Assembly: GCA_030265395.1 (NCBI GenBank)
Contig: JARFYF010000012.1
Span: forward strand, 30,503,036-30,567,035
Reading direction: 5' to 3'
Source of the DNA: Rhina ancylostomus
Taxonomy: Eukaryota
Length of the DNA: 64,000 nt
Shown here: one piece after another, positions 1-6,000 of the stretch
Layout: each line of letters starts with the position of its first letter
Numbering within the stretch: the stretch's first letter is position 1
Program-made: the position numbers

Positions 1-3000
1 GAGGAAATATGTTATTTCAGTCAGCCAGTATTGGTGGCTGTTGAACTGTCTGCCTAGAAAGGTTGAAGGTGGCAGAAATTTTCACCACATTTAGAAAAAT
101 ATCTGGAGCAGTGCTTCAGGCCTATGGATCAAGAAATCGAAATTGTCTTCAACACAACTGTCCATTTCTGATCAGGAGGGACACAATGGGTCAAATAAAC
201 TCCTCCTATTGCTATAGTTTTAAACTTGTTCTTAAACTAGTCAACTTACAAGGGGTACGTTGAGTCACGGTAAATAACAGCTTGCTATCCAGGAAGTTTT
301 GTGAGCATTTATTTGGATCTTGGCACCAGCACCCCTCATTTATGGTGTCTTTATTCCAAGTGGGTAAGTCAGATACCGTGACAGCTTGCAAGCATTCAGG
401 TGGACAGGATACTGAATGAGGATTGAACGTTGATGAGGAATAATGCATTCAAAAGGAGAGGGGAGGAGGAAATAGAGGCAAAAGTGGAGAAGGCAGATGT
501 CACAATGTTATCTTCATTACTGAGATAGTTAAAGTACCCTCTTCAACACAACTTACAGTGAAGATAACCCAGTGCCTTTCTAGATACACACAGACCAAAG
601 TAAATAAGAGCAGAATGCCAACTGATCCCTCAGCCCCACCTCTCAATACACTGCACAGTTAAAAGTACAACATCAAAGTGTGACTTACCTTAACAGCCTG
701 TTTGCAGCATCAAATGATTTATCAATACCACATTTGGGAAATAAGAAGAAAGAAAATTAAGTGATCAGAATAGTAAACATTTTCCACAAATTCAAATAGA
801 TAACATGCATTTCTGTGCAGAAAGGAATAATCAATTTTTTTTTCCTGTTCCAAGAGAAAGGGCATCATTATAACTAAACACCATTCCCGCCAAAAGAGTC
901 CTAGAGCATTGGTTTATTACATACCTCATTGGAAAGATTAATCACTAAACAGAATAATTTACACCATTGTATGCCAAACCTTGCACTGCAATGCAATGCA
1001 AATAGGCAATAGATTAACATTTCTAATTTTGGCTAACATTTTTCTACCTTCAAAATTTGGATTCAAGTTTAAATCAAATTGAATAAATAAATGTAGATCT
1101 TTGCATGCAGGTATGTAATAAACATGTACTGGTTAGTACAACCACTAATGAACTGAAAAAGGAAATTCTCCAAGAATACAACCCTATGTGTGATCATGCG
1201 CTGGGTTTTGCCAAGCTGTTTAATGAGCAGAAATTATCACCCAATTTATAGTTCAATTATGACCCCAAAAAATGATATCCCCTCCAATGGTATTTAGGAG
1301 ACTATCTTTCTAAATAATAAAAAAAACAGCCTACACAGTCTTCACTATACTTTTGTTTAAAAACCCACAGCATTATTAGTATGTTGTGTGTTTTCATACC
1401 ATTTGTTTTAATACACAGTCTATGGTACATACCTGAGAAGAACACAAGACAGACAATCCTGCAGAATTTTTCATATCAATGGATACCATCTTTGATATTT
1501 TTCAGTGCAAGGATTAATAATGCTGTATAGTTTAAGACATCCTTGTTACACTTTTCTAATAGGCTCAATCTACCGACTGTGTAGGCTTGTATAGGAAATA
1601 CTGTCTTTATTGAATCAAAAGATTTTAATTACTGTATGCAAATGAGATTTGGGAGTAGCTTTTCATCTGCTGCAGGAAGAAAACTCTTCAAAAAAAAAAG
1701 TTGTTCACTGCAAAGGAGCAACATCTGCCAATAGCTAGCTTCCTGTGGGACTCCTAACATTATTTCAGAGGGAACTGATGCACTTCAAATGCAAATCTGG
1801 ATTAAAATTTATGAGCACAATATGCAAAACTGTGACTTGCTTTCACTAAAGTAGGATTTACACTCAAAATTAAGTAGATAGGAATTCTTACATGAGAAAC
1901 AGCATCATGAAATAATGAAAGAAAGCAAAAAACAAATACAAACCAGTAACACATTATTCTCTGCTTTACTTCTTTTCATGATGCTTAGTATTTCGTAGGG
2001 GAATATAGAGTGGCTGAATCATCAAGTACTTTGGGTTTCGAAGTTAAGGTAATGGCTCCAAAGCTAAGATGGCTCGAAAACTGATTTCCATAGAGATAGC
2101 AATCTCAGCCAAGGCTGAGATAAGAGCACAAGTGGTCCAATGAGCTGAAGTTTTGAAAATAAAAACAGGCAGTGCTGTCCCTTTCCAATAATCTGCTGGA
2201 AATGTTCTGTTGGTGCTGGACATGAACAGTATCAGGTTCAGCGATAAAATCTCCCACAGTTCCATTACTTCCAGAAATCATCACATGGTGAGAACTATAA
2301 TTTCCCTTTCCCCACTTTGGAACTGTATCCCAAACTACTGGTAACTTCAGATAAGGGGAAGGGAAAATTTCCATGTACTTAGAGTGGAAACAATGAACTG
2401 TTTGAGAGTCAAAATATAGACAGAAGTAGTAAACTTGTATCTTAAATGGAAAAAAAAAGTTATATCAAGCAATTAAAAATTAGTATTCTTAACCTGCAAG
2501 TAGTTTTCCTGACCTCTCGAGAAGAAAAAAAAAGTTGACTGTCAGATTATGTGACCAAGACCAAAACTCAGAGCAGGTACTAAGGCTAGGACACTGAAGA
2601 TTCCCAACCTGCTAAATCTTTACCAATTAAAAAAAGGTATTGTTATCTTTGGGACTCTTTAAACCATTGATTTTAGCCTTCAGAATATTAAAGTTAAATT
2701 TCTGTACAAGGAAAAATGGGGACCTCTCAAGTTTATCGCAGACACAGTATACCCGATCTTTGGACATGATTTATGGATTAGAATACTAAGTAAACATTGA
2801 CGTTACCTTGATCAAAGAAAACCTTACAAATCATTTCAATTTAGGTATTAAATATTTTCAGAGCATGTTAACTATTGGCAGACTGCTCAAGATAAAATGA
2901 GAGCAGATGGTGGTACTCCCCCTCATGTAACATACAGTGACAGAAAAAAATTCAGTACAAGCCTCCTAAACCTTGAATATTACTAACTTAGTGTTTTCCA

Positions 3001-6000
3001 TACATACATGCAGTGCTGATGTAGTAGTCATTTTGACGACTGCTTTGGTGAAACTGTCTACAAACTGAAAGTTAGAATGCATGAGTGAGTTCCACCTACA
3101 GTGCTTTGACAAGTTAATCTCCTTTACCGACATTCACTCACTTCAATGTGAGTTAACATTTTTCCCTCAAATGTCTTGGATCAGATCCATTTCATTATTT
3201 ATTTAATTTTACAGGTTATATGGCAAGTCCTAGTAAACACAGCAAAAACTGAATCTTAAATAATGGAATACCTTATGCAATCCACTGCACACAGTAAGAA
3301 ATTAAATAGCATCCAGGTCACAGTGTCAAAAACCAAACTGGGATTTGTATTTGAAGTGCTTCATGAACTGGTATTTTAAATTATCCTAAATCGGTCAACA
3401 AATTGTGACGTAACATACATTGAGCTTACCATAGCATTTTTAATGAACAGCACGTGTGCATGGATTACATAGAATTATTAAACATGAACAAATCACATCC
3501 ACTTGCATACTATTTCTTCAATGTTACATCTATTCAATTTACAAGCAGATTTCATCTTGAGTAAATTGACTTGCTGCAGAATATTCAAGTTACTACTTAG
3601 CTTTTGTGGAGAGGGAATTAGGATTTCAAGCCATTCACTTAAAAAAAAATAAAGTTTTGACTGATTCCATGTAAAAAGGATATTACCTGTGATTCCAGGA
3701 GAGGTTTCTGGCTGTCTTCTACATCAATAACACAATCACGAGCATTTGAAAGTAAAGATACTGCACAAATTAAGAAAAAAAATCTAAGATTACAGTATAT
3801 TTTAGAAAGCGGTAATGCCATCAAAATATCTAAAACATTTGCATGATGAATTTAAAACTAATCATTAAAATTTAGGAACTAATTTGCATGACTATACTTA
3901 AAAGTAGCCCATATAATTTTTAAAACACATTGGATATGATGCTTTAGAATCCAGATTTTCTATCTGCGTTGAAGCTAATTTTCAAAGGTCGAAATTCCTT
4001 TAGAAAGACATTTGGAAAATACCTTTAGACTGCATTCCAACAGTTTCTTTTTCAGCATAGGCATCAATCCGATATTCTTGCAAAGAATGAATTGTGCATT
4101 GTCCAACCACAGGTTTACGTCCAAACGGCCTGTGGTCAATTACCTTTATGACAATAGGAGGAGTGTACATTTCTTCTTTCGGAAGATACTAGAACCAAGA
4201 CCAGAAATGACGGATCATTTCAGATCCATTCACGTAAATTTTTGTTGATTAATACAATCATTTGTTACAGCATAAATTCAATCTAAGCTTTCAAGTACCA
4301 GTTCAGAAATTATGCATAATATAAATTTTCAATGGTAAACTTACTTTGCAAGATTAACTTCCTTAATCATTCAATGACATGTAAACCGCACAAGACTTGT
4401 TCAGATTGATTAAATCAATTTTACCTTTGATATCCTTCTGTAGAAATATATTTAACTTGTGGACTGGTGTCCAAAACTACCATATTTACAAGATGTGTGA
4501 CTTTAAATATTTCTCTGAAAATTGAAACAATTTGAATTCTCAAATTGCAATGAACAGTAGACTGATCAACAAAAGTTCCAACATCAGTTGGACAAAGCAT
4601 ACCTTTTGTTTTCAAAAAGAAAATCTTAGACAGTGAAATGCATTGATAATGTTAGTGATAATCATATTTTAAAAAAAAAATCAATTTTGATTTTGTTAAC
4701 TTACTTGCTAAAATATTCAAAAGCAGCAATTCTACCTCAATTGCTTTAGCTGCATCTCAAGTAGTACATTACAGAAGGCTAACAAAGCAGTCAAGGCAGG
4801 TATCCTTGCAAGGTCCAACAGGTTAATTATGCCCGAATTTTAAATAGAGTTCAGAGATTCAAGTGCAGAATACTTAGAATATACATATTAATTTTAGCAC
4901 AAATGACATGAATGGCAGTTTACAAATTACACTCCTTGATGTTGCTTTTTTTAAAAAAAATGCAGATCTGGCAGTAGAAGCACCAGGTTTAATCAATTAT
5001 ATAGTCATCCTATTACAGCTGGTACATTGAACTATAAGCAGTGGGAAATCCACTTCATTTGGAGAACTCTGGATTAATTCTACAATGATATAAAGATATT
5101 AGTGCAATTAAATATTTCACAAATTTAGCCTGATAACAACCTAAATGGTCCACTATTGCTCATTATTTCAATAAATGATCAAACAATATTAATTCAACAA
5201 TTTTAAAGTACCAATTGCACAGTATTCTTGAGATGCATAAACATACCACTTTCAAGAAGAGGACAGAGCGGGGAAAATTTGGACATTTTTTAAGGCTCTT
5301 GATCACAGCAGATTCCAAATACTTGTCACCACATTCCACAATGAGACTTGGGGAAGTAACAGCTGCCAGCTGGTAGCTCCTCATGTTCCGTAACCCCCAC
5401 GTTAGAATCTGCAACAACATTCTTGTTAAATAAATCTGCCTTACCATGATTAGTGGACTTGCTCAATCTTTAGTTTGAAGCAGATGGCTTAACCAGTTAA
5501 GTCAAGAAATAGCTTCTTAAAAAGGCACAGATTTTGTGCTGATGTCGACAGCTATAAATGTGCAAAAATGACAGCAACATCTGGGTCTGGATTTGTACAA
5601 TGCAGATCATGGTGTCACTAATAACCTGTTCCTTCATAAACTGGCAACTCCAGCCTTCTATGATGGAACATAGAAGGGGGATCACCTGAATGAGTGATTG
5701 ATAGTTATCTGCTATTCTTGTATTAGAAACGATTGAAGGAAGAAAAGGCTTGCTCATTCAGGTGTAAATGGTGAAATACATCATCATCCCTGGAAAAACT
5801 CAGTAGTCACATTCCCTAAAACTTGATTGAAAAAAATTAAAATTACATTTGTTTTACTCTTATACATTTCCTTTTAGTACCTGTCTTGCTCACATAAAAT
5901 GAACAGATTTTCCGTTTCCCCATTTAAAACCACTTCCTGCTTTGCCATCTGAATATGTTGATGAGGATTCTTCATAGTAATTGTTTTAACATCTTTTCAA

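What the first reader, a model, noticed from the sequence alone, without database searches (positions are those of the whole stretch)
500..3686. Repeat-poor 3-kb intron zone that may act as a combinatorial microexon cassette for the ferlin cleavage linker
Seen: unlike most long introns here, this stretch has no recognisable SINE or LINE, but has at least four phase 0-0 exon candidates (57, 15, 33 and 9 nt). It also carries sense-strand TGCATG (804-809, 1104-1109, 3007-3012) and TACTAAY (1132-1138, 1375-1381, 2479-2485) motifs. Inference: purifying selection on a splicing-regulatory region that could generate multiple linker variants, possibly more than are described in mammals. Motif counts were not tested against background.
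Basis: partly seen in the sequence, partly recalled or inferred. Interest (0 to 1): 0.65.

Follow-up and report, generated by a model that had tools for sequence, protein, structure and literature searches.

The report
Myoferlin linker cassette exons, elasmobranch
This stretch is part of an intron of a shark- or ray-type myoferlin gene that holds three small optional exons (57, 57 and 9 bases), already annotated in related species, whose mixing lengthens a flexible linker of the protein; the other proposed exons and the motif counts are what chance gives.

Summary
The window holds a myoferlin (MYOF) orthologue on the minus strand. It is elasmobranch and not human. Bases 500-3686 lie in the intron after the linker exon 3687-3760 (…KPLLESQ, ends in phase 0). 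The next constitutive exon (…SIDWWSK) lies outside the window.

Their counts are at or near chance: TGCATG 3 against about 1.2, TACTAAY 3 against about 0.55. In-frame AG…GT candidates of 9, 15, 33 or 57 nt number 23, against 25.7±5.1 in shuffles and 22 on the antisense strand.

Three candidates are real by homology to annotated shark, ray and chimaera isoforms:
- Exon A, 3008-3064, FVDSFTKAVVKMTTTSALH
- Exon C, 689-697, AVK

Across 61 models from 20 species, six of the eight possible combinations occur. No 15- or 33-nt candidate has support.

The lack of repeats is not unusual within this window. Selection on the intron itself could not be tested.

The combinatorial-cassette idea is therefore partly right, with different exons. 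The exons are already present in database annotation of relatives.

The parts
4023..4188 (-). Constitutive myoferlin exon (166 nt) encoding the end of a C2 domain: [55 protein letters not shown]. It ends in phase 1.
   Evidence: best PDB match is human myoferlin residues 1413-1467 (E=4e-19). Callorhinchus myoferlin residues 1196-1250 match at 82% identity. The boundaries tag|TAT and AAG|gtattt were read.
3687..3760 (-). Constitutive linker exon (74 nt): (V)SLLSNARDCVIDVEDSQKPLLESQ. It ends in phase 0, so any downstream cassette must be a multiple of 3 nt to keep the frame.
   Evidence: acceptor tgtgcag|, donor CAG|gtaata. The same …KPLLESQ end precedes every insert in the relatives.
3008..3064 (-). 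Cassette exon A, 57 nt, FVDSFTKAVVKMTTTSALH. Acceptor ctaactttcag|, donor CAT|gtatgt.
   Evidence: the Narcine insert scores 87 here against a next-best 27 among 127,888 six-frame windows, with 18 of 19 residues identical. The hit falls exactly on an AG…GT-bounded in-frame unit. The insert is present in 26 of 61 chondrichthyan models. Donor matches the consensus at 7 of 9 positions.
1433..1489 (-). Cassette exon B, 57 nt, MVSIDMKNSAGLSVLCSSQ. Acceptor atatcaaag| is weak in pyrimidines; donor CAG|gtatgt.
   Evidence: the Heptranchias insert scores 62 here against a next-best 23 (14 of 19 identical), Heterodontus scores 51 and Callorhinchus 32, each the best hit in the window. The insert is present in 15 of 61 models, none of them from rays or skates. 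Donor matches at 8 of 9 positions.
689..697 (-). Cassette microexon C, 9 nt, GCTGTTAAG = AVK. Donor AAG|gtaagt.
   Evidence: The same three residues, AVK, sit at this place in the Heptranchias and Cetorhinus models; other species have AAK, APK, IAK, VAK, TVK or VVK. It is the only 6-15-nt candidate downstream of exon B with a 9 of 9 donor match and a long AG-free zone. The order A-B-C matches the relatives.
698..812 (-). Upstream region of microexon C. It holds a 115-nt AG-free zone, a pyrimidine tract about 45-70 nt upstream, UGCUGC at -12 and -9, and UGCAUG (809-804) at the far edge of the AG-free zone.
   Evidence: Only 14 of 3835 AG-to-AG gaps in the window are 113 nt or longer.
1354..1378 (-).
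   Evidence: pair I3: 25 nt, 76% complementary. In the minimum-free-energy fold the two arms pair and loop out exon B (z=-1.94; 10 of 200 shuffles fold as well).
1515..1539 (-). Upstream arm of the same inverted repeat, 26-50 nt upstream of the exon B acceptor.
912..1123 (-).
   Evidence: pair I1: 27-nt arms, 85% complementary; z=-4.07, with 0 of 200 shuffles folding as well.
2479..2485 (-). It is not near any supported exon: about 520 nt after exon A and about 990 nt before exon B.
3007..3012 (-). It is made of the last five bases of exon A (…GCA CTG CAT) plus the G of the donor GT, so it is coding and splice-site sequence rather than an intronic element.

Best explanation
Bases 500-3686 are part of the intron that follows the linker exon 3687-3760 of an elasmobranch myoferlin gene on the minus strand. 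The linker joins the C2 domain ending at …GQCTI… to the C-terminal two-C2-plus-membrane-anchor module that begins …SIDWWSKFYAS. The dysferlin alternative exon 40a is reported at a comparable place, between its exons 40 and 41.

The intron holds three cassette exons, each a multiple of three bases and each entered and left in phase 0:
- A: 57 nt, 3008-3064
- B: 57 nt, 1433-1489
- C: 9 nt, 689-697

Any subset keeps the reading frame and lengthens the linker by 0, 3, 19, 22, 38 or 41 residues.

Shown: the three exons are there, intact, with usable splice sites, in the same order and with the same boundaries as the inserts in annotated isoforms of sharks, rays and a chimaera.

Inferred:
- The exons are alternatively spliced in this species as well.
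- Exon A adds a short amphipathic helix followed by a Thr/Ser-rich tail, exon B adds a second flexible segment, and exon C adds a three-residue spacer.
- These inserts tune the length, docking or protease accessibility of the hinge, as exon 40a does for calpain cleavage of dysferlin.
- Exon C is recognised in the way other microexons are (perfect donor, distant pyrimidine tract and branch point, UGC just before the AG).
- Exon B may be damped by a stem that pairs its two flanks.

The 15- and 33-nt candidates and the TGCATG and TACTAAY counts are chance features.
For: Gene and strand. Exon-by-exon matches go to human myoferlin in the PDB and to Callorhinchus myoferlin from 59768 down to 3687. 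Identity to ray, skate and shark myoferlins is 78-82%, against 67% for coelacanth.

Exons A and B. Unique, very high six-frame scores fall exactly on AG/GT-bounded units.

Exon C. Its residues are identical to two shark models, its donor matches 9 of 9, and its AG-free zone is 115 nt.

Splice sites. A, B and C have the three best donor matches (7, 8 and 9 of 9) among the 23 candidates, apart from one tie at 7.

Combinations among 61 models from 20 species: none 13, C 15 (plus one anomalous model), A 9, A+C 8, B+C 6, A+B+C 9.

Age. Exons A, B and C are all present in the chimaera Callorhinchus. A 19-residue insert with the shared S-x-A-[VI]-x-K-M core occurs at the same place in three teleost models. 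An optional 12-nt LTEK/LAEK insert sits at the place of exon C in tetrapods.

Helix.

Cleavage context. Passages of PMC4230592 say that exon 40a confers calpain cleavage on dysferlin and that myoferlin is also cleaved to a dual-C2 module.
Against: There are no transcript data for this species, so alternative use here is inferred from other species' models. Many of those models come from automatic pipelines and may copy one another.

Exon B is absent from all 18 ray and skate models (7 species), and the window is marginally closest to rays. In the window, exon B departs at three positions that are constant or near-constant in the 15 models that carry it (…AGLS-V-L-C-SSQ against …[GR][LM]A-x-[FY]-R-SSQ). 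Its acceptor is also poor in pyrimidines (0.50). It may therefore be a decaying relic here.

Exon C is too short for a statistical homology test.

The teleost inserts do not find exon A as their best hit in the window, so that homology rests on place, length and a short core.

The stem around exon B is only marginally better than shuffles (z=-1.94).

A calpain site in A or B was not tested.

The helix prediction is a periodicity calculation, not a fold.
Confidence: 0.75

Rival explanations
1. One reading: four microexons of 57, 15, 33 and 9 nt together with enriched Rbfox-type (TGCATG) and branch-point or Quaking-type (TACTAAY) motifs mark a selected splicing-regulatory zone that makes more variants than are known elsewhere.
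For: Motif positions are exact. TACTAAY is nominally enriched, 3 against 0.55, P about 0.02. One TACTAAT lies at +52 after exon B and one GCATG at +234. These are places where downstream binding sites could promote inclusion; that link rests on established knowledge of these factors and is recalled, not tested here.
Against: The candidate count is at chance, 23 against 25.7±5.1. No 15- or 33-nt candidate matches any insert in 279 ferlin proteins, and their donors match 2-7 of 9 positions. TGCATG is not enriched (P about 0.1); one copy is exon A coding sequence plus its donor, and one lies in a hairpin arm. No TACTAAY lies 15-50 nt upstream of a supported acceptor.
Confidence: 0.07
2. A two-exon system in this lineage: only A and C are used, and exon B is a relic no longer spliced in rays and their relatives.
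For: 0 of 18 ray and skate models carry B, against 15 of 43 shark and chimaera models. The window scores highest with ray proteins. B in the window has three changes at otherwise constant or near-constant positions, a weak acceptor and a flanking stem that would loop it out.
Against: The frame is open, AG and GT are intact, the donor matches 8 of 9 and 14 of 19 residues equal those of a distant shark. Absence from models may only mean low or tissue-restricted inclusion. The placement of the window among rays is weak.
Confidence: 0.3
3. An annotation artefact: the inserts in relatives are prediction errors spread by homology, and the zone is plain intron.
For: Most of the 61 models are automatic predictions. 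I saw no expression evidence.
Against: Models from independent sources (NCBI, UniRef and eukprot entries) and lineages that separated very long ago (chimaera against elasmobranchs) carry the same inserts with the same boundaries. The sequence is kept at 18 of 19 and 14 of 19 residues in an unannotated window, with exact AG/GT borders. Drifting intron would not keep this.
Confidence: 0.04

Closest known systems
Annotated myoferlin linker inserts of other chondrichthyans (for example the models named myoferlin isoform X1 of Carcharodon carcharias, myoferlin-like of Heterodontus francisci, Heptranchias perlo and Narcine bancroftii, and isoform X1 of Callorhinchus milii)
   Same: Same gene and same place, after …KPLLESQ and before …SIDWWSK. 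Same order A-B-C, and same lengths (57, 57 and 9 nt as in Heterodontus and Heptranchias). A matches Narcine at 18 of 19 residues, B matches Heptranchias at 14 of 19, and C is identical to Heptranchias and Cetorhinus.
   Different: In several sharks B is 48 nt, lacking three residues. In stingrays A is 54 nt. Ray and skate models lack B, whereas the window keeps an intact B with three unusual residues.
Dysferlin alternative exon 40a, and the myoferlin alternative exon 38a of mammals
   Same: Optional in-frame exons reported in the linker before the last two C2 domains. In dysferlin, exon 40a carries the calpain site that releases the dual-C2 module, and myoferlin is also cleaved there (passages of PMC4230592; passages of PMC6770723 and PMC12264198).
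   Different: No sequence likeness was established. The 40a cleavage stretch quoted in PMC4230592 is Pro/Ser/Thr-rich, while A begins with an amphipathic stretch. A calpain site in A or B was not tested. What I know of exon 38a is recalled from the abstract of Piper et al. 2017, which the library does not hold. The human 38a sequence was not at hand, so orthology of A or B with 38a is open.
Optional 12-nt LTEK/LAEK insert of tetrapod myoferlin and 9-15-nt inserts of ray-finned fishes (REK, RVEK, LVEK, KAEL)
   Same: Same place directly before the …[ED]xx[IV]DWWSK exon. Optional within one species: Chrysemys picta models with and without LTEK, Callorhinchus with and without AAK. The insert ends in K in most of the variants seen.
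   Different: It is 9 nt in chondrichthyans against 12 nt in tetrapods and coelacanth. Homology of so short a unit cannot be proved from sequence.
19-residue insert of teleost myoferlin models (Danionella, Takifugu, Scleropages; P0068, P0054, P0072)
   Same: Same place, same length (57 nt) and a shared core S-x-A-[VI]-x-K-M followed by an Ala/Pro/Ser-rich tail. There are 5-6 identities with exon A.
   Different: Ungapped BLOSUM62 scores of 16-22 are below the best chance hits in the window (24-28). The amphipathic periodicity is not seen in the teleost version.
SRRM3/4-dependent microexons
   Same: Exon C is 9 nt. It has a perfect donor, a UGC pair between the pyrimidine tract and the AG, and a long AG-free zone. 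A UGC between branch point and AG is described as highly characteristic of these exons (passages of bioRxiv 10.1101/2024.09.17.613571).
   Different: No expression or factor dependence is known here. A UGC within 20 nt of an AG is common by chance. Many models in many vertebrates contain the insert, which argues against a strictly neural exon.

Membership tests
Myoferlin (ferlin family) gene | Exons encode C2, FerI, FerA, FerB and DysF-region segments in ferlin order, and are closest to myoferlin rather than dysferlin or otoferlin. | tested here: met
   Pfam finds C2, FerB, FerA and FerI on minus-strand ORFs. In the PDB, myoferlin scores above dysferlin and otoferlin for both exons tested. About 30 collinear exon matches to named myoferlins.
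Chondrichthyan myoferlin linker cassette (exons A, B, C) | Inserts located between …KPLLESQ and …SIDWWSK, in the order A, B, C. | tested here: met
   A at 3008-3064, B at 1433-1489 and C at 689-697, all downstream of 3687 on the minus strand. The …SIDWWSK exon is outside the window.
Chondrichthyan myoferlin linker cassette (exons A, B, C) | Sequence likeness of each insert beyond chance. | tested here: met
   A scores 87 against a next-best 27. B scores 62 against a next-best 23, over 127,888 windows. C is identical (AVK) but too short to test on its own.
Chondrichthyan myoferlin linker cassette (exons A, B, C) | Phase 0-0 with canonical AG and GT. | tested here: met
Chondrichthyan myoferlin linker cassette (exons A, B, C) | Alternative inclusion in this species. 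| not testable with these tools
   No transcript data. The inference comes from 61 models of 20 other species.
Calpain-cleavable ferlin linker exon (dysferlin 40a type) | Optional exon in the linker before the last two C2 domains. | tested here: met
   Place shown. [quoted passage not shown]
Calpain-cleavable ferlin linker exon (dysferlin 40a type) | Carries a calpain cleavage site that is used. | not testable with these tools
   No cleavage predictor or assay was available.
Calpain-cleavable ferlin linker exon (dysferlin 40a type) | Sequence homology to exon 40a or 38a. | not tested
   The reference exon sequences were not obtained. Only a 14-residue stretch of 40a is quoted in PMC4230592, and no likeness is evident by eye.
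SRRM3/4-type microexon | Length 3-27 nt, with a UGC between the pyrimidine tract and the AG. | tested here: met
   9 nt, with UGC at -12 and -9 and a pyrimidine tract at about -45 to -70. This is weak evidence, since UGC is frequent.
SRRM3/4-type microexon | Inclusion depends on SRRM3/4 and is neural or endocrine. | not testable with these tools
   No expression data.
Rbfox-regulated exon | (U)GCAUG within about 300 nt of the exon, conserved and above background. | tested here: inconclusive
   GCATG lies at +234 after B and -111 before C. The count in the zone is at chance. Conservation is untestable.
Quaking/SF1 ACUAAY element | ACUAAY near a regulated exon, or at branch-point distance from an acceptor. 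| tested here: inconclusive
   One site at +53 after B. None lies within 150 nt upstream of the A, B or C acceptors. Nominal enrichment P about 0.02.

The most novel reading that the evidence does not exclude
Exons A, B and C are the ancestral jawed-vertebrate form of the ferlin 'cleavage linker' module, from which dysferlin 40a and myoferlin 38a descend. Their combinatorial inclusion sets whether the C-terminal dual-C2 module stays tethered. Exon A docks as an amphipathic helix on membrane or on a neighbouring C2 domain. Exon B supplies the exposed protease site. Exon B inclusion is gated by the RNA stem that pairs its flanks (1354-1378 with 1515-1539), together with the ACUAAU at +53. Elasmobranchs would then keep a richer linker code (up to eight forms) than is described for mammals.
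Probability: 0.12. Interest if true: 0.6.

Novelty: new member of a known kind. Interest (0 to 1): 0.3.

Why it matters
Cleavage of ferlins in this linker releases a synaptotagmin-like two-C2 module. In dysferlin that cleavage depends on one optional exon (PMC4230592).

The myoferlin linker of cartilaginous fishes carries three optional in-frame exons that are kept from chimaera to rays. One has a likely counterpart in teleosts and one in tetrapods. This gives a concrete set of natural linker variants for asking what the optional exons do: protease access, hinge length or membrane docking. It also helps date the feature.

For genome annotation, it places two 57-nt exons and a 9-nt microexon that gene finders easily miss.

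It does not change what is known. The exons are already in relatives' database models, though my three literature searches found no paper describing them: 'myoferlin'/'calpain'/'exon 38a' with at least two terms, 'myoferlin' + 'exon 38a' with 0 papers, and 'myoferlin' + 'microexon' with 2 papers whose titles and abstracts concern other subjects.

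Tried and rejected
- **15-nt and 33-nt candidates.** All 9 and 6 were listed. None resembles any linker insert in the collected proteins. The 33-nt unit at 1400-1432 begins with the donor GT of exon B, and the 15-nt unit at 1444-1458 lies inside exon B in another frame. The best remaining one (3142-3174, donor 7 of 9) has a weak acceptor and no homologue. All were rejected.
- **Direct motif look-up of teleost insert patterns in the zone.** It found nothing useful, because the elasmobranch exon A differs at the positions used.
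- **Third large protein search, with the Heterodontus linker region.** It returned only 9 chondrichthyan clusters, so it gave no information on exons A or B in bony vertebrates.
- **Repeat tests.** Self-BLAST, Pfam on 142 ORFs, Rfam (0 matches), ARAGORN (0), tandem repeats (3 trivial), and a profile of the SINE-like family. None shows the zone to be exceptional.
- **Next constitutive exon.** I looked for …SIDWWSK… within 1-3686 and did not find it.
- **Piper et al. 2017 (PMC5995151).** The library does not hold it.
- **Left out on purpose.** Each exon was searched by itself. The nine N runs were left as they are.
- **Stayed unchecked.** The closed collections (metagenome and viral contigs) were not used. 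The only open genome collection holds bacteria and archaea alone, so no cross-species DNA alignment of the intron was possible. Supplements of the papers were not opened.

Full report
**What the window is.** The window has 709 N in nine runs, none inside 1-7788. I left them untouched.

Stop-to-stop frames on the minus strand carry ferlin pieces. I searched them one exon at a time. The frame 4000-4188 matches human myoferlin residues 1413-1467 best (E=4e-19), ahead of dysferlin and otoferlin. The frame 7269-7670 behaves the same way. Identity to the human protein in these conserved C2 pieces is well below 100%, so I do not take the window for human.

A protein search with the single exon 4024-4188 gave Callorhinchus 'myoferlin like' as best hit at 83%. 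tblastn of that protein maps about 30 collinear exons from 59768 down to 3687, all on the minus strand. Against 16 named myoferlins, summed identity is 78-82% for rays, skates and sharks, 74% for the chimaera and 67% for the coelacanth. Ray proteins score highest. The gene is therefore the myoferlin orthologue of an elasmobranch, perhaps a ray-like one.

**Where the finding sits.** Exon 4023-4188 ends in phase 1. The next exon, 3687-3760, reads (V)SLLSNARDCVIDVEDSQKPLLESQ and ends in phase 0, with donor CAG|gtaata. In every relative this …KPLLESQ is followed, directly or after inserts, by …[ED]xxSIDWWSKFYAS. No such exon exists in 1-3686. The intron therefore runs off the left end of the window, and 500-3686 is only part of it. 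This is the linker ahead of the last two C2 domains and the membrane anchor.

**The observation.** All six motif coordinates are right for the sense (minus) strand. Counts are as follows:

| Measure | Observed | Expected or control |
|---|---|---|
| TGCATG | 3 | 1.11 from the rest of the window (P=0.10); 1.26 in 500 dinucleotide shuffles (12.6% reach 3) |
| TGCATG, other controls | – | antisense strand also 3; 4 of 20 equal tiles hold 3 |
| TACTAAY | 3 | 0.55-0.58 (P about 0.02, uncorrected); one other tile holds 4 |

The TGCATG at 3012-3007 is the last five bases of exon A plus the donor G. The one at 1109-1104 lies in an arm of a long hairpin. The one at 809-804 lies 112 nt before exon C. 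No TACTAAY lies within 150 nt upstream of a supported acceptor. One lies 52 nt after exon B.

In-frame AG…GT units of 9, 15, 33 or 57 nt number 23 in 500-3686. The antisense strand gives 22, shuffles give 25.7±5.1, and other tiles give 18-41. Such candidates are expected by chance.

**Repeats.**
- Self-comparison covers 2.6% of the window and 0% of the zone, and 24 of 32 2-kb bins also show 0.00.
- The repeated pieces belong to one SINE-like family of about 250 nt, whose sequence looks tRNA-derived to my eye. A profile of four copies finds 8 hits at about 21.3, 37.2-37.5, 40.6, 48.4, 62.9-63.3 and 63.9 kb, and none below 21 kb.
- No reverse-transcriptase domain appears in any of 142 ORFs of 70 aa or more.
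- Rfam and ARAGORN find nothing.

The zone does lack recognisable repeats, but so does the whole first third of the window. Without a repeat library I cannot say more.

**What is really there.** A second protein search (Callorhinchus protein, linker region) brought full-length myoferlins of many vertebrates. A cluster look-up added isoforms. Their linkers show three inserts after …KPLLESQ:
- **A:** F[VI]DS[FLM][TSN][KQ]AV[VI]KM… ending in LH, 18-19 residues.
- **B:** …D(MKD)S[AE][GR][LM]A.[FY]RSSQ, 16-19 residues.
- **C:** three residues (AAK, AVK, APK, IAK, VAK, TVK, VVK).

The window encodes all three, in that order, each bounded by AG and GT and each in phase 0-0:
- A at 3008-3064: FVDSFTKAVVKMTTTSALH
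- B at 1433-1489: MVSIDMKNSAGLSVLCSSQ
- C at 689-697: AVK

In an ungapped BLOSUM62 scan of all 127,888 six-frame windows, the Narcine A peptide scores 87 at 3008-3064 against a next-best 27. The Heptranchias B peptide scores 62 at 1433-1489 against a next-best 23. The Heterodontus and Callorhinchus B peptides also have their best hit there. The 16-residue Carcharodon form does not, because it lacks three residues.

Exon C cannot be tested that way. It is, however, the only 6-15-nt candidate downstream of B with a 9 of 9 donor (AAG|gtaagt). It follows a 115-nt AG-free zone; only 14 of 3835 AG gaps in the window are 113 nt or longer. Its residues equal those of Heptranchias and Cetorhinus.

Among the 23 candidates, A, B and C have donor matches of 7, 8 and 9 of 9. 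Only one other candidate reaches 7. The donor consensus MAG|GTRAGT is recalled.

**The other candidates.** None of the fifteen-nt units (LNVCY, LVIFK, ENYLQ, LIGPL, NNVLL, DCLSC, YSEDC, VWHTM, SHFDV) resembles any insert seen. The same is true of the thirty-three-nt units. Two of them are by-products of exon B: one lies inside it in another frame, and one starts on its donor GT.

**Combinations.** Among 61 models of 20 chondrichthyan species:

| Inserts present | Models |
|---|---|
| none | 13 |
| C only | 15 (plus one anomalous model that lacks the linker exon) |
| A only | 9 |
| A+C | 8 |
| B+C | 6 |
| A+B+C | 9 |
| B alone | 0 |
| A+B without C | 0 |

Single species show several forms. Carcharodon has C, A+C, B+C and A+B+C. 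Callorhinchus has none, C, A, A+C and B+C. These are database models, many of them automatic, and I saw no read evidence.

None of the 18 ray and skate models carries B.

**Age.** All three inserts occur in the chimaera, so they predate the split of chimaeras and elasmobranchs.
- Three teleost models have a 19-residue insert at the same place with a shared S-x-A-[VI]-x-K-M core, giving 5-6 identities and scores of 16-22 against exon A. Those scores are below the best chance hits of the same peptides in the window (24-28). I therefore call homology likely on place and length, not proven.
- Tetrapods and the coelacanth have an optional four-residue LTEK, LAEK or LVEK insert at the place of C. 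Ray-finned fishes have three- to five-residue inserts.
- I found no B-like insert outside chondrichthyans in 279 proteins. The sample was not designed to find one, and the dedicated search reached only chondrichthyans.

**How it may work.**

Shown: three in-frame optional units in the linker.

Inferred for the protein:
- The first twelve residues of exon A have strong helical amphipathicity. The hydrophobic moment is 0.59, reached by 0.4% of shuffles, and values of 0.52-0.58 are seen in four other species. Exon B has none.
- Exon A may therefore add a short docking helix plus a Thr/Ser-rich tail, B a flexible stretch and C a spacer.
- In dysferlin, the optional exon 40a supplies the calpain site that frees the dual-C2 module. 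[quoted passage not shown] Myoferlin is cleaved to a similar module, apparently constitutively (passages of PMC4230592; passages of PMC6770723, and PMC12264198).
- From memory of the abstract of Piper et al. 2017, human myoferlin has a second site in an alternative exon 38a. The paper is not held, and a search for 'myoferlin' with 'exon 38a' found no paper.
- Whether A or B corresponds to 38a is open.

Inferred for the RNA:
- Exon C has the build described for SRRM3/4-type microexons, namely a UGC between the pyrimidine tract and the AG (passages of bioRxiv 10.1101/2024.09.17.613571), together with a perfect donor. This is a weak lead.
- Exon B is bracketed by an inverted repeat (1515-1539 and 1354-1378) that closes the minimum-free-energy fold around the exon. 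The fold is only marginally better than shuffles (z=-1.94; 10 of 200).

**Verdict.** The supporting observations (candidate count, motif counts, lack of repeats) are not above chance. The exons are already present in the annotation of related species, so this is a new member of a known kind. Its use in this species, the status of exon B, and any selection on the intronic sequence remain to be tested.

Noticed in passing
window 340-481 (minus strand): A strong acceptor-like site: pyrimidine tract 481-450, a 100-nt AG-free zone, then cag| with the unit starting at 411. A GT follows at 376-375, giving a 35-nt unit that would shift the frame. Read in phase 0 without that donor, the frame runs 23 codons to a TAA at 342-340, and AATAAA lies at 355-350 and 313-308. 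It could be a poison exon or an alternative terminal exon giving a myoferlin without its last two C2 domains, or it could be chance. No relative's model shows it.
   Followed up: partly
window 912-1123: A long hairpin with 27-nt arms, 85% complementary. The fold of 900-1135 has z=-4.07, with 0 of 200 shuffles folding as well.
   Followed up: partly
window 21341-21601, 37181-37529, 40592-40849, 48346-48577, 62924-63317, 63896-63998: An interspersed SINE-like family of about 250 nt with 75-95% identity between copies. The sequence has a tRNA-like end to my eye, but ARAGORN and Rfam do not call it. It is the only repeat family detectable within the window, and all copies lie above 21 kb.
   Followed up: partly
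window 2108-2464 (minus strand): The longest open frame in the zone (119 codons) has no Pfam match. It has no match in the myoferlins used for tblastn. It is probably a chance frame in AT-rich intron.
   Followed up: partly
window 11700-12000: The sequence flanking the N run 11814-11913 is G/C-rich and translates as Gly- or Pro-runs in several frames. It is a simple-sequence stretch at an assembly gap. The gap was left as it is.
   Followed up: no
window 23496-23714 (minus strand): A weak Pex24p (PF06398) match below the curated cut-off. The same family is pre-computed on many of the myoferlins listed, so it reflects the ferlin DysF-region exon and not a second gene.
   Followed up: no
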